A stretch of 64,000 bases of DNA from a virus, in the IMG/VR virus record IMGVR_UViG_3300045988_094645. One strand, given 5' to 3'. The notes under the pieces are model-generated. The model was not told where the DNA came from and searched no databases. It saw only the letters and a program-made list of their open reading frames with translations. Position numbers and translations under genes: made by a program. The stretch's first letter is position 1; every line of letters starts with the position of its first letter. Positions 44,593 to 45,474 of this stretch are shown one piece after another.

Positions 44593-45474
44593 GTATTAAA
44601 AACGATTTTGGTTAAGGTTAATCGTGAACCTTGTCAGTGTGCTACTACGCCAAAGGCGAGTCCTGCAGGTCTACTCGCCACTCTTTAAATGGTGGACGCT
44701 TTCAATCCTACATCCTGACAATAGAAGTCTTATTTACGATTTCTATACGTATTGCTTCTATTACTGGCACCGCTTCTTCGTGTTGAACGAAGACCTCTTG
44801 GTTCAGAGCCAAGCGTGCAGACCGCTACACTAAAGCGGTATAAAGAAAATAGAATAACTTAGATATAACTATAATGCGGGCCTTCGCCCTACCAACTGTT
44901 TAATCTTCATCTATATTCAACCATTGAGGAGACAAGTCTGAGCTTCGAGGAGCGACCTCTAACTTCTTGCCCCAGAACTTTTGTTCCATTTCTCAAAAGG
45001 GATTGATTACCCTTACCTTTCACCCGTCATTCAGAAATTTGATTTTAGAACAAGCAATATCTTATTATCTAATCATCAAAGTCTTTGCACATTTGGGCTA
45101 CTCAGATCATGACCTTATCTTATACCCAGATTTCTCTGGTTCAAGTGCAAACTCTCTTGTTGGCATTTCCAAGGATTGCCAAAGTTGCCACACTTTAACC
45201 TAACTTGGATTATTCCCCACAGGGGCGTCTATTGCGAGAGCGATAAGACAGTGTTTTTAGATGCGATTATGTCAGCACAACCCTCCTAGGAGCCGGTCAT
45301 TCGACCACGAGAACTCTAATGTCACCATTAAAGCCCATTACGGATGGTTGGGGTATCCTCCATTATCCGATTCTCCCAGCCTAAGCTCGGATTGGGTTTC
45401 TCAGCCACATGACGTTGTGTCTTCACTGAGTTGCATTATAGCCATATCTAAGTTATTCTATTTTCAAGGTACAG

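What the first reader, a model, noticed from the sequence alone, without database searches (positions are those of the whole stretch)
44600..45470. ORF-free stretch of about 870 nt inside the tRNA island: candidate large structured ncRNA (GOLLD/ROOL-like) or degenerate tRNA/intron remnants
No gene can be assembled on either strand even allowing TAG readthrough. The supplied plus-strand ORFs are implausible. The region is flanked by tRNAs and holds many local hairpins and a T-loop-like GGTCGAATGACC element. Large ornate ncRNAs (GOLLD, ROOL) characteristically occur in phages next to tRNA clusters.
Basis: inference. Interest (0 to 1): 0.6.

Follow-up and report, generated by a model that had tools for sequence, protein, structure and literature searches.

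The report
ROOL nanocage RNA gene in phage

Summary
The 870-nt ORF-free stretch is real. It is composite, and all parts lie on the minus strand.

- **ROOL RNA gene, 44859..45454:** Rfam RF03087 scores 350.3 bits against a cut-off of 99.1, E 3e-80, covering model positions 1-574 of 574.
- **tRNA-Gln(CUG), 44765..44839.**
- **Spacer, 44593..44764:** 172 nt with no assignable function.

Evidence that the ROOL copy is intact:
- 133 of 159 consensus pairs are canonical.
- Its nearest distinct homologue (66% identity) differs by 33 compensatory pair changes.
- The P10 pseudoknot and the L8-J6/8 kissing pair, which is inter-subunit bridge B4 in the cryo-EM octamer, are both complementary here and covary across homologues.

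The "T-loop-like" GGTCGAATGACC is an ordinary ROOL hairpin. There is no match to GOLLD, RNase P, an intron or 6S RNA.

ROOL lies 20 nt after tRNA-Gln(UUG) and 19 nt before tRNA-Gln(CUG). In four sister phages the same two tRNAs are 3 nt apart with no ROOL, so the 632-nt block is a clean presence/absence cassette.

I infer that ROOL is co-transcribed with the tRNAs, cut out by tRNA-processing enzymes, and assembles into a homo-oligomeric nanocage. Its biological role is unknown family-wide.

Verdict: a new member of a known kind, of low-to-moderate interest.

The parts
44859..45454 (-). ROOL RNA gene, 596 nt, full length
   Evidence: Rfam RF03087: 350.3 bits (gathering 99.1), E 3e-80, model 1-574/574, not truncated. 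133 of 159 consensus pairs are canonical.
45433..45448 (-). P1 closing stem, 5' strand (ROOL nt 7-22, GAUAUGGCUAUAAUGC)
   Evidence: Pairs over 16 bp (14 Watson-Crick, 2 G-U) with nt 578-593. The single difference from contig 093451 (C592 to U) turns a G-C pair into G-U.
44862..44877 (-). P1 closing stem, 3' strand (ROOL nt 578-593)
45295..45306 (-).
   Evidence: Aligns to the ROOL model hairpin <<<<<____>>>>>. Coordinates.
45186..45190 (-). L8 loop UGGCA (ROOL nt 265-269), one partner of the kissing interaction that is inter-subunit bridge B4 in the env-120 octamer
   Evidence: 5-bp complement of UGCCA at nt 290-294. The pairing covaries in homologues: GGAGU/ACUCC, UAGCA/UGCUA, UGGUA/UACCA, UGAU/AUCA. 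B4 defined in PMC12286853.
45161..45165 (-). J6/8 UGCCA (ROOL nt 290-294), partner of the L8 loop
45145..45151 (-). Pseudoknot P10, 5' strand UUUGCAC (ROOL nt 304-310)
   Evidence: 7-bp complement of GUGCAAA at nt 365-371. Mean self complementarity is 5.2 bp against 3.6 bp for cross-pairings among homologues.
45084..45090 (-). Pseudoknot P10, 3' strand GUGCAAA (ROOL nt 365-371)
45037..45083 (-). Variable internal linker (ROOL nt 372-418, 47 nt, 23% G+C); in solved ROOL cages the equivalent segment is disordered and faces the interior
   Evidence: Aligns to the unconserved loop of the model. Composition. No similarity among homologues. Structural role taken from PMC12286853.
45018..45036 (-). 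Family-invariant motif UUCUGAAUGACGGGUGAAA (ROOL nt 419-437); its UCUGA is complementary to UCAGA at nt 514-518
   Evidence: Invariant in the 22 aligned ROOLs. The exact motif recovered 29 viral loci; the 27 that gave a ROOL hit were ROOL.
44934..44942 (-). Invariant CUCAGACUU in internal loop J17/18 (ROOL nt 513-521)
44947..44959 (-). P18/L18 hairpin GAGGUCGCUCCUC (ROOL nt 496-508); L18 makes the symmetric inter-half-shell kissing loop B6 in env-120
   Evidence: The sequence equals the Rfam consensus GGUcGCUCC. Role of B6. The pairing itself was not testable here.
45475..45548 (-). tRNA-Gln(UUG), 20 nt upstream of the ROOL 5' end
   Evidence: ARAGORN; Rfam 61.8 bits
   Evidence: ARAGORN; Rfam 57.0 bits
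44843..45474 (-). 632-nt block (ROOL plus short flanks) that is present here and in IMG/VR contig 3300045988_093451 but absent from four sister phages
   Evidence: In L059, L060, L061 and L063 the alignment jumps from window 45475 straight to 44842, and the two tRNA-Gln genes are 3 nt apart.
44593..44764 (-). 172-nt spacer, unassigned
   Evidence: No Rfam match at E<=10. Fold z-score is only -1.66. It is conserved in ROOL-less relatives (alignment A2 as a whole, spacer plus interrupted tRNA plus the next spacer, has 96% mean column identity), so it is not part of the ROOL cassette.
46212..46240 (-). Best promoter-like site upstream (TTGAAA-17-TATAAT with TG), a candidate start of the transcript that carries ROOL
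   Evidence: 11 of 12 matches. The total number of promoter-like sites is not above shuffles, and no minus-strand terminator-like site lies in 43500..47000. A consensus match only.

Best explanation
[quoted passage not shown] It belongs to an uncultured phage with a large tRNA island and an amber-suppressor-type tRNA.

Shown:
- Family identity.
- An intact consensus fold.
- An intact P10 pseudoknot and an intact L8-J6/8 kissing pair.
- Position between two same-strand tRNA-Gln genes.
- Presence/absence of the 632-nt block among close relatives.

Inferred:
- The RNA is transcribed as part of the polycistronic tRNA transcript.
- Its 3' end is released by RNase P cleavage at the 5' end of tRNA-Gln(CUG), 19 nt downstream.
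- Its 5' end is released by 3' processing of tRNA-Gln(UUG), 20 nt upstream.
- The 16-bp P1 stem then brings the two ends together and the RNA folds into the flat ROOL monomer.

Inferred by homology with env-120, Enterococcus faecalis and Ligilactobacillus salivarius ROOLs:
- It self-assembles without protein into a dihedral homo-oligomer, an octamer or possibly a hexamer.
- That oligomer forms a hollow cage about 28 nm across.
- The 47-nt AU-rich linker lies inside the cage.

What the cage does for the phage is unknown for the whole family. The working hypothesis in the literature is encapsulation or sequestration of RNA or ribonucleoprotein cargo during infection.

For: - **Family match:** Rfam RF03087 at 350.3 bits against a gathering score of 99.1, E 3e-80, model 1-574/574.
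- **Fold in this copy:** 133 of 159 consensus pairs are canonical, 19 are non-canonical and 7 are gapped.
- **Covariation across 22 ROOLs (MAFFT alignment):** 63.8% of cells are paired, against 52.0% when shuffled (0 of 500 shuffles reach it) and at most 47.5% when slid. The covariation score is 0.331 against 0.155. Several helices are 90-100% paired with many double changes.
- **Against the nearest distinct homologue (L084, 65.9% identity):** of the consensus pairs that are canonical here and aligned, 71 are unchanged, 13 are kept by a one-sided change, 33 are kept by compensatory double changes, and 13 are broken.
- **Tertiary and quaternary pairings:** the P10 pseudoknot is 7 bp and L8-J6/8 is 5 bp. 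Both covary among homologues, and they correspond to covarying pairs listed for env-120, including bridge B4.
- **Conserved motifs:** all family-invariant motifs are present.
- **Change against contig 093451:** the one substitution converts a P1 G-C pair to G-U.
- **tRNA context:** the gaps to the flanking same-strand tRNAs are 20 and 19 nt. A same-strand tRNA starts within -5 to +34 nt of the ROOL 3' end in about 11 of about 19 distinct ROOL lineages examined. No opposite-strand tRNA lies within 3 kb of ROOL in the 28 loci tabulated.
- **Transcription signals:** no minus-strand terminator-like site lies in 43500..47000, and a strong promoter-like site sits at 46240..46212.
- **Cage assembly in other ROOLs:** PMC12286853, PMC12515178 and PMC12990946.
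Against: - There are no expression data, no mapped ends and no structural data for this copy.
- 19 consensus pairs are non-canonical here. They cluster in the P3-region helix that carries a 12-nt insertion, the outer part of one long helix, and P17/P18. Some of this may be misalignment.
- The MAFFT-based covariation counts are diluted by register shifts.
- Stoichiometry cannot be predicted. The apical hairpin is short (11 nt, nt 230-240), and the L. salivarius ROOL, whose corresponding stem is ultrashort, forms a hexamer.
- The promoter scan as a whole is not enriched over shuffles.
- Processing by RNase P or 3' enzymes is inferred from geometry only.
- No function is known for any ROOL. It is dispensable in L. 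salivarius.
Confidence: 0.9

Rival explanations
1. The locus is a decaying ROOL relic (pseudogene) that no longer folds or assembles. It is carried along passively in the tRNA island.
For: 19 of 159 consensus pairs are non-canonical and 7 are gapped. ROOL is dispensable in sister phages that lack it. ROOL is non-essential in L. salivarius.
Against: The score, 350 bits, is among the highest of the 28 ROOL hits scored with RF03087 here; only L003 at 363.3 is higher. All invariant motifs, the P1 stem, the P10 pseudoknot and the B4 kissing pair are intact. 33 compensatory changes against 13 broken pairs relative to L084 indicate selection on the fold. The only change against contig 093451 preserves a pair.
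Confidence: 0.04
2. The stretch is made of degenerate tRNA genes or intron remnants rather than one large RNA.
For: The span does contain tRNA-Gln(CUG). It is bordered by an interrupted tRNA (44474..44592, ~42-nt insert) and, further upstream, by two sub-threshold tRNA-like hits at 45558..45618 and 45622..45688 (20.7 and 17.9 bits).
Against: No tRNA-model hit, even at E<=10, falls inside 44859..45454. That segment is covered end to end by the ROOL model. No group I or group II intron model matches.
Confidence: 0.02
3. A frameshifted or recoded protein-coding gene, or a GOLLD, RNase P or 6S-type RNA, occupies the stretch.
For: With TAG read through, minus-strand stop-free runs lengthen to 65-68 codons. 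The phage probably recodes TAG in part of its genome.
Against: No frame stays open. The substitution pattern against L084 is one of paired compensatory changes rather than codon-position bias. blastn against 50,697 phage records finds only tRNA matches. GOLLD and the other RNA families give no hit.
Confidence: 0.01
4. The 172-nt spacer 44593..44764 is itself a small structured RNA, independent of ROOL.
For: It is highly conserved among five related phages, including ROOL-less ones (alignment A2 as a whole has 96% mean column identity). One difference (A to G) keeps a pair in the hairpin GCGAGU/ACUCGC. The MFE fold is a multi-branch structure.
Against: The fold z-score is only -1.66, and 14 of 200 shuffles fold as well. 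There is no Rfam hit at E<=10. The relatives are too close for covariation, and neighbouring sequence of all kinds is equally conserved.
Confidence: 0.15

Closest known systems
ROOL RNA (Rfam RF03087; Weinberg et al. 2017, PMC5737381); solved examples are the env-120 octamer (PDB 9MDS), the E. faecalis octamer (9J3T) and the L. salivarius hexamer (9J6Y)
   Same: Length is 596 nt against a family mean of 581. The consensus fold is complete, with P1 closing the molecule. The P10 pseudoknot, the L8-J6/8 kissing pair, the conserved L18 sequence, the invariant UUCUGAAUGA-GGGUGAAA and CUCAGAC motifs, and an unconserved internal linker of about 50 nt are all present. The location is phage, inside a tRNA array, on the same strand as the tRNAs.
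   Different: The primary sequence is distant from other members found here: the nearest distinct homologue is 66% identical and the others align only in the cores. There is a 12-nt insertion before one P3-region helix. The apical hairpin is short, at 11 nt. The host phage carries an amber-suppressor-type tRNA, a tmRNA and a Major-Vault-Protein-like gene. Oligomeric state and expression are untested.
GOLLD RNA (Rfam RF02032)
   Same: It is a large ornate phage or prophage RNA in tRNA arrays. It forms RNA-only nanocages with an internal disordered linker.
   Different: Sequence and fold are unrelated. No GOLLD hit occurs in the window. GOLLD forms 10- to 14-mers. One IMG/VR contig (L011) carries both GOLLD and ROOL side by side, which shows they are distinct genes.
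phi29 prohead RNA (pRNA)
   Same: It is a phage-encoded RNA that works as a homo-oligomeric ring through intermolecular loop-loop pairing. The ROOL cryo-EM paper cites it as the precedent.
   Different: pRNA is about 120-170 nt, forms a pentamer or tetramer ring on the portal, and has a known role in DNA packaging. There is no sequence or fold relation, and ROOL has no known protein partner.

Membership tests
ROOL RNA (RF03087) | Covariance-model score at or above the curated gathering score (99.1 bits) | tested here: met
   350.3 bits, E 3e-80; 8.9e-82 in the local scan
ROOL RNA (RF03087) | Full-length match to the model, both ends present, P1 closing stem | tested here: met
   Model 1-574 of 574, not truncated. 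The 16-bp P1 stem is nt 7-22 with nt 578-593.
ROOL RNA (RF03087) | Consensus multi-junction secondary structure kept, with covariation | tested here: met
   133 of 159 pairs are canonical. The covariation score is 0.331 against 0.155 shuffled (0 of 500) and at most 0.202 slid. 33 compensatory changes against 13 broken pairs relative to L084.
ROOL RNA (RF03087) | Pseudoknot P10 (env-120 nt 349-352 with 406-409) | tested here: met
   UUUGCAC/GUGCAAA, 7 bp. It covaries across homologues.
ROOL RNA (RF03087) | Complementarity of loop L8 with J6/8 (inter-subunit bridge B4 in the octamer) | tested here: met
   UGGCA/UGCCA, 5 bp. Homologues show GGAGU/ACUCC, UAGCA/UGCUA, UGGUA/UACCA. Mean self complementarity is 4.6 bp against 2.95 bp for cross-pairings. 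B4 annotated.
ROOL RNA (RF03087) | Highly conserved nucleotides and motifs of the family | tested here: met
   GGAUAC, AAUAG, GUAGC.CA, UUCUGAAUGA.GGGUGAAA, CUCAGA and the GAA loop are invariant in 22 aligned ROOLs, this one included.
ROOL RNA (RF03087) | Conserved L18 loop that forms the symmetric kissing loop B6 between half-shells | tested here: inconclusive
   The sequence GGUCGCUCC equals the model consensus. Which bases pair between chains could not be derived without coordinates.
ROOL RNA (RF03087) | Unconserved internal linker of about 50 nt | tested here: met
   nt 372-418, 47 nt, 23% G+C, with no similarity to other members. In env-120 the disordered linker is nt 414-464.
ROOL RNA (RF03087) | Phage or prophage location near tRNA genes | tested here: met
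   It lies inside a minus-strand island of 30 tRNAs and one tmRNA. Phage genes surround it: topoisomerase II, ligases, PhoH and NAMPT PHROGs.
ROOL RNA (RF03087) | Protein-free assembly into a dihedral homo-oligomeric nanocage | not testable with these tools
   Known for env-120, Efa and Lsa ROOLs. This copy would need in vitro transcription followed by mass photometry or cryo-EM.
ROOL RNA (RF03087) | Abundant discrete transcript | not testable with these tools
   No transcript data are available. High abundance is reported for L. salivarius only.
GOLLD RNA (RF02032) | Covariance-model match to the conserved 3' domain | tested here: not met
   There is no GOLLD hit at gathering threshold in the window and none at E<=10 in 44200..45900. 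The same library detects GOLLD in L011 at 173 bits.
tRNA or tRNA remnant (RF00005) | tRNA model match inside the ORF-free core | tested here: not met
   Within 44600..45470 only 44768..44839 matches (57 bits). Nothing matches inside 44859..45454, even at E<=10.

The most novel reading that the evidence does not exclude
ROOL genes behave as self-contained cassettes that are gained and lost exactly at tRNA-tRNA junctions, and that depend on the tRNA-processing machinery for their ends. Here the 632-nt block sits in what is a 3-nt spacer in sister phages. It lies within a ~3.3-kb segment that is almost identical between two phages that are only 79% identical next door.

In this phage group the cage might work together with the neighbouring RNA-handling module, as a compartment that shields or stores phage tRNAs during infection. 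That module comprises a Major-Vault-Protein-like shell protein, a DUF2828 'RNA-binding' protein, an RNA ligase, a tmRNA and interrupted tRNAs.

The cassette behaviour is partly supported. The functional link to the vault-like module is not: 28 other MVP-like loci have no ROOL within 10 kb.
Probability: 0.07. Interest if true: 0.8.

Novelty: new member of a known kind. Interest (0 to 1): 0.3.

Why it matters
The stretch is explained. It is a textbook ROOL, so it adds one well-delimited, sequence-divergent member to a family whose cage architecture was solved in 2025 but whose function is still unknown.

Two things give this copy modest extra value:

- **A natural isogenic comparison.** Sister phages carry the same tRNA-Gln pair with no ROOL, so ROOL-plus and ROOL-minus phages can be compared for fitness or metatranscriptome studies.
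- **A testable maturation route.** The ROOL 3' end abuts a same-strand tRNA in about half of the lineages examined, which points to RNase P-type processing.

For annotation, the result shows that ORF-free gaps in phage tRNA islands should be scanned with RF03087 and RF02032 before being called novel.

Tried and rejected
- **Other RNA families.** GOLLD, RNase P, group I/II introns, 6S and HDV-like ribozymes gave no Rfam hit at gathering threshold in the window, and none at E<=10 in 44200..45900.
- **Coding potential.** Checked under code 11, with TAG read through and with TGA read through. No frame stays open.
- **GenBank phages.** blastn (distant mode) of 44200..45700 matched only tRNAs. Megablast of 24 kb matched only one tRNA-Trp. 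No close deposited relative exists.
- **IMG/VR contig 093451 (L012, L030, L062).** It is 99.8-100% identical across the tRNA/ROOL block, so it is useless for covariation or constraint analysis.
- **MAFFT alignment of 22 ROOLs.** It has register shifts in short helices. I therefore measured B4 and P10 by per-sequence complementarity rather than by column.
- **A full ROOL covariance model.** It could not be built, because of the 400-column limit.
- **ROOL linked to the Major-Vault-Protein-like gene.** Of 29 viral loci with an MVP-like gene (±10 kb), only this phage's twin has ROOL. The 29 ROOL-motif contigs and the 29 MVP contigs share only that one contig. I rejected this as a general link.
- **DUF2828 near ROOL.** It is seen in L003 and L006 as well as here. 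Flanks are too short elsewhere to judge.
- **172-nt spacer as a structured RNA.** The z-score is -1.66, which is not convincing.
- **Host inference from GTDB.** Full ROOLs occur in Clostridia, Ruminococcus, Segatella and Bacteroidaceae MAGs. None is close enough to name a host.
- **Theta (HDV-like) ribozyme as an explanation of the tRNA insert.** Those ribozymes sit 3' of tRNAs, not inside them. The paper mentions no introns.
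Full report
**Observation**

All long ORFs of the window are on the minus strand. So are the 30 tRNA genes and the tmRNA found by ARAGORN between 35238 and 54453, which include a CUA-anticodon tRNA.

Within 44600..45470 the longest stop-free run on the minus strand is 42 codons under code 11 and 68 codons if TAG is read through. The antisense plus strand reaches 91 codons. The stretch is therefore genuinely free of plausible genes.

Treating TAG as sense raises the total length of minus-strand ORFs of at least 100 aa from 13,366 to 17,646 codons.

**Identification**

A scan of the whole window with all Rfam 15 models at gathering thresholds gives one non-tRNA, non-tmRNA hit. 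It is ROOL (RF03087) at 44859..45454 on the minus strand: 350.3 bits against a cut-off of 99.1, E 3e-80, covering model positions 1-574 of 574.

A permissive scan (E<=10) of 44200..45900 adds nothing inside that interval. It shows no GOLLD, RNase P, intron, 6S or ribozyme match.

- ROOL at 44859..45454.
- tRNA-Gln(CUG) at 44765..44839.
- A 172-nt remainder at 44593..44764.

The quoted GGTCGAATGACC is the minus-strand reading of 45295..45306, which is ROOL nt 149-160. It is a 5-bp hairpin of the ROOL model and not a T-loop.

**Is the fold intact?**

I projected the model's structure onto the sequence. Of 159 consensus pairs, 133 are canonical, 19 are non-canonical and 7 fall in gaps. P1 is a 16-bp stem joining nt 7-22 to nt 578-593.

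The invariant 18-base ROOL motif TTCTGAATGANGGGTGAAA recovered 29 IMG/VR loci. The 27 that gave an Rfam hit were all ROOL, at 175-363 bits.

On a MAFFT alignment of 22 of them, with the projected structure:
- 63.8% of cells are paired, against 52.0% in shuffles (0 of 500 reach it) and at most 47.5% when partners are slid.
- The covariation score is 0.331, against 0.155 shuffled and at most 0.202 slid.
- Several helices are 90-100% paired with 8-14 double changes per pair.

The alignment is imperfect in short variable helices, so these numbers are conservative.

The nearest distinct homologue is in a 402-kb contig (L084/L085) and is 65.9% identical. Relative to it, 71 pairs are unchanged, 13 are kept by a one-sided change, 33 are kept by compensatory double changes, and 13 are broken.

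The single difference from the near-identical copy on IMG/VR contig 3300045988_093451 turns a P1 G-C pair into G-U.

**Tertiary and quaternary signatures**

The cryo-EM study of env-120 lists covarying pairs for pseudoknot P10 and for the L8:J6/8 pairs. The latter form inter-subunit bridge B4 of the octamer.

- **P10:** here it is UUUGCAC (nt 304-310) with GUGCAAA (nt 365-371), 7 bp.
- **L8/J6-8:** here it is UGGCA (nt 265-269) with UGCCA (nt 290-294), 5 bp.
- **Covariation:** across homologues the partners change together. Examples are GGAGU/ACUCC, UAGCA/UGCUA, UGGUA/UACCA and UGAU/AUCA for B4, and UGAGCCU/AGGCUCA and UGUGC/GCACA for P10.
- **Self versus cross complementarity:** each RNA's own complementarity is longer than cross-combinations, at 4.6 against 2.95 bp for B4 and 5.2 against 3.6 bp for P10.
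- **Linker flank and J17/18:** the invariant UCUGA (linker flank) and UCAGA (J17/18) are both present.
- **L18:** it has the consensus sequence.
- **Linker:** it is 47 nt and 23% G+C. The disordered interior linker of env-120 is about 51 nt.

**Context and likely maturation**

ROOL lies 20 nt downstream of tRNA-Gln(UUG) (45475..45548) and 19 nt upstream of tRNA-Gln(CUG).

No minus-strand terminator-like site occurs in 43500..47000. The best promoter-like site is TTGAAA-17-TATAAT with TG, at 46240..46212, upstream of the cluster. The scan as a whole is not enriched over shuffles.

In the other loci every tRNA within 3 kb is on the ROOL strand. A tRNA starts within -5 to +34 nt of the ROOL 3' end in about 11 of about 19 distinct lineages.

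I therefore infer co-transcription with the tRNAs, with release by RNase P on the 3' side and by tRNA 3' processing on the 5' side. This is inference from geometry. It agrees with the co-transcription suggestion of Weinberg et al.. It also agrees with the finding that a tRNA precursor fused to the ROOL 3' end does not disturb the cage.

**Presence/absence**

I fetched loci around homologues of the adjacent ATPase gene. Four sister phages have an ATPase 91-92% identical: L059, L060, L061 and L063. They carry the same tRNA-Val, tRNA-Gln(UUG), tRNA-Gln(CUG) and tRNA-Leu series. Their two tRNA-Gln genes are only 3 nt apart.

Window 44843..45474 (632 nt, ROOL plus short flanks) has no counterpart in them. 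More distant relatives (L064-L076) also show no ROOL within ±6 kb. A gain in this lineage is therefore the simpler reading. I could not scan their whole contigs.

The window and contig 093451 are 97-100% identical (mostly 99-100%) from about 43.4 to 46.66 kb but only 79% identical in the ATPase gene next door. The ROOL-bearing block has therefore moved by recombination between related phages.

**How it most likely works**

Three independent ROOLs have been studied in vitro:
- **env-120:** forms an octamer, stable at concentrations as low as 12.5 nM.
- **E. faecalis:** forms an octamer.
- **L. salivarius:** forms a hexamer.

All three form protein-free dihedral cages about 28 nm across. The cages are held by kissing loops and A-minor contacts, with the variable linker inside.

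This copy keeps the monomer fold and the testable inter-subunit pairings. I therefore expect it to form such a cage, with roughly 0.7 confidence for the assembly step. The stoichiometry is open.

The biological function is unknown for the family. The published hypothesis is encapsulation of RNAs, ribosomal particles or other cargo.

**Rivals**

- **A decaying relic:** unlikely, given the score, the intact motifs and the compensatory changes.
- **tRNA or intron remnants:** this describes the flanks but not the core.
- **Coding or GOLLD-type explanations:** excluded.
- **The 172-nt spacer:** it has no Rfam match and a weak fold z-score of -1.66. It is conserved in the ROOL-less relatives too (alignment A2 as a whole has 96% mean column identity). 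It is not part of the cassette, and its role is open.

**Side observations**

1. **Interrupted tRNA.** The tRNA at 44474..44592 has perfect acceptor, D and T arms but a ~42-nt insert next to the anticodon. The insert is a hairpin followed by GUAACAGCAAU. Inserts of the same design occupy the same position in tRNAs of at least eight other phages of this group. One of them is the tRNA directly 3' of the L084 ROOL. The tRNA body is invariant while the insert carries small indels.
2. **Major-Vault-Protein-like gene.** 30773..33208 encodes an 811-aa protein with Major Vault Protein shoulder and repeat domains (Pfam). It matches rat and human MVP at E 6e-17. Its neighbour at 33588..35108 is a DUF2828/DUF7788 protein. 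Viral MVPs have been noted in a 2023 preprint. ROOL is not generally linked to them.
3. **tRNA inside a ROOL linker.** Two other ROOLs (L001, L022) carry a tRNA inside the linker.
4. **GOLLD and ROOL together.** One contig (L011) carries GOLLD and ROOL in tandem.

**Verdict**

The element is a typical, newly catalogued member of a known family.

I score interest at 0.3. Most of that comes from the clean presence/absence polymorphism and the tRNA-punctuated arrangement, which make the family's open functional question a little more tractable.

Noticed in passing
window 44472..44592 (-); also L060 5313-5431, L033 35-154, L064 4205-4328, L068 3675-3799, L073 4590-4712, L075 and L076 4223-4337, L079 6865-6980, L084 9755-9893: A family of interrupted tRNA genes. 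Acceptor, D and T arms are normal, but a 40-52-nt insert sits beside the anticodon. The insert is always a short hairpin followed by a conserved [AG]ACAGCA[AG] motif. It is too short for a group I intron and has no Rfam family. The tRNA body is invariant among close relatives, while the insert has small indels. ARAGORN finds these genes only in intron mode, and its isotype calls are unreliable. Mechanism unresolved: protein-dependent splicing, a decoy, or a mini mobile element.
   Followed up: partly
window 30773..33208 (-) and 33588..35108 (-): An 811-aa protein carries Major Vault Protein domains: MVP_shoulder at 64.5 bits and Vault_3 at 34.3 bits. It matches rat and human MVP at E 6e-17 over residues 464-766. 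Next to it is a 506-aa DUF2828+DUF7788 protein (PHROG 850, 'RNA-binding protein'). 29 IMG/VR phage contigs encode MVP-like proteins at 45-99% identity, and DUF2828 lies within 10 kb upstream in about 13 of them. Only this phage's twin has ROOL nearby. Viral MVPs were reported in a 2023 preprint.
   Followed up: partly
L001 1954-2027 inside ROOL 1600-2195; L022 661-734 inside ROOL 495-1088; tRNA-like T arm in the L002/L008 linker: Some ROOL RNAs carry a complete tRNA inside the variable linker, which faces the cage interior in solved structures. Examples are tRNA-Phe(GAA) in L001 (Rfam 53.1 bits) and a tRNA in L022 (51 bits). The papers I read report embedded tRNAs for GOLLD but do not mention them for ROOL.
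   Followed up: partly
L011 (IMGVR_UViG_3300032038_000517): GOLLD 1950-2417, tRNA 1830-1904, ROOL 972-1561, all on the same strand: One viral contig carries GOLLD (173 bits) and ROOL (327.7 bits) in tandem, separated by a single tRNA, within one tRNA array.
   Followed up: no
window 43387..46659 versus IMG/VR contig 3300045988_093451 (L012): Mosaicism. The tRNA/ROOL block is 97-100% identical (mostly 99-100%) between the two phages. The adjacent ATPase gene (42517..43386) is 79% identical and tRNA-Met (42402..42477) is 89.5% identical. The window's ATPase is closer (91-92%) to the ROOL-less phages L059-L061 and L063.
   Followed up: partly
window 45558..45618 (-) and 45622..45688 (-): Two sub-threshold tRNA-like matches (20.7 and 17.9 bits) lie just upstream of tRNA-Gln(UUG). 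They are probably degenerate tRNA copies. They are conserved at about 86% in sister phages.
   Followed up: no
window 36130..36204 (-), and ORF statistics over the whole window: A CUA-anticodon tRNA, which ARAGORN labels 'Pyl', is an amber-suppressor type. Treating TAG as sense lengthens minus-strand ORFs of at least 100 aa by 32% in total, against 16% for TGA. This suggests TAG recoding in part of the genome.
   Followed up: partly
window 25094..26368, 47033..47485, 47763..48078, 54540..55430, 21015..22604, 14551..15807 (all -): A cluster of RNA-handling and auxiliary genes surrounds the tRNA island. It comprises an RNA ligase (PF09414), a 150-aa ORF with no Pfam hit, a tmRNA (tag DNDYFENYLAA), an RNase T-like exonuclease, nicotinamide phosphoribosyltransferase and a PhoH-like ATPase.
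   Followed up: no
L089, L091, L092, L094, L101, L102 (GTDB MAG contigs of Comamonadaceae, Methylophilaceae, Anaerolineaceae, Bacteroidetes, Flavobacteriales, Dehalococcoidaceae): These loci contain the exact 18-base ROOL core motif, but nhmmer matches only 25-60 nt around it. They may be very divergent ROOLs or an unrelated RNA that shares the motif. I did not scan them with the covariance model.
   Followed up: no
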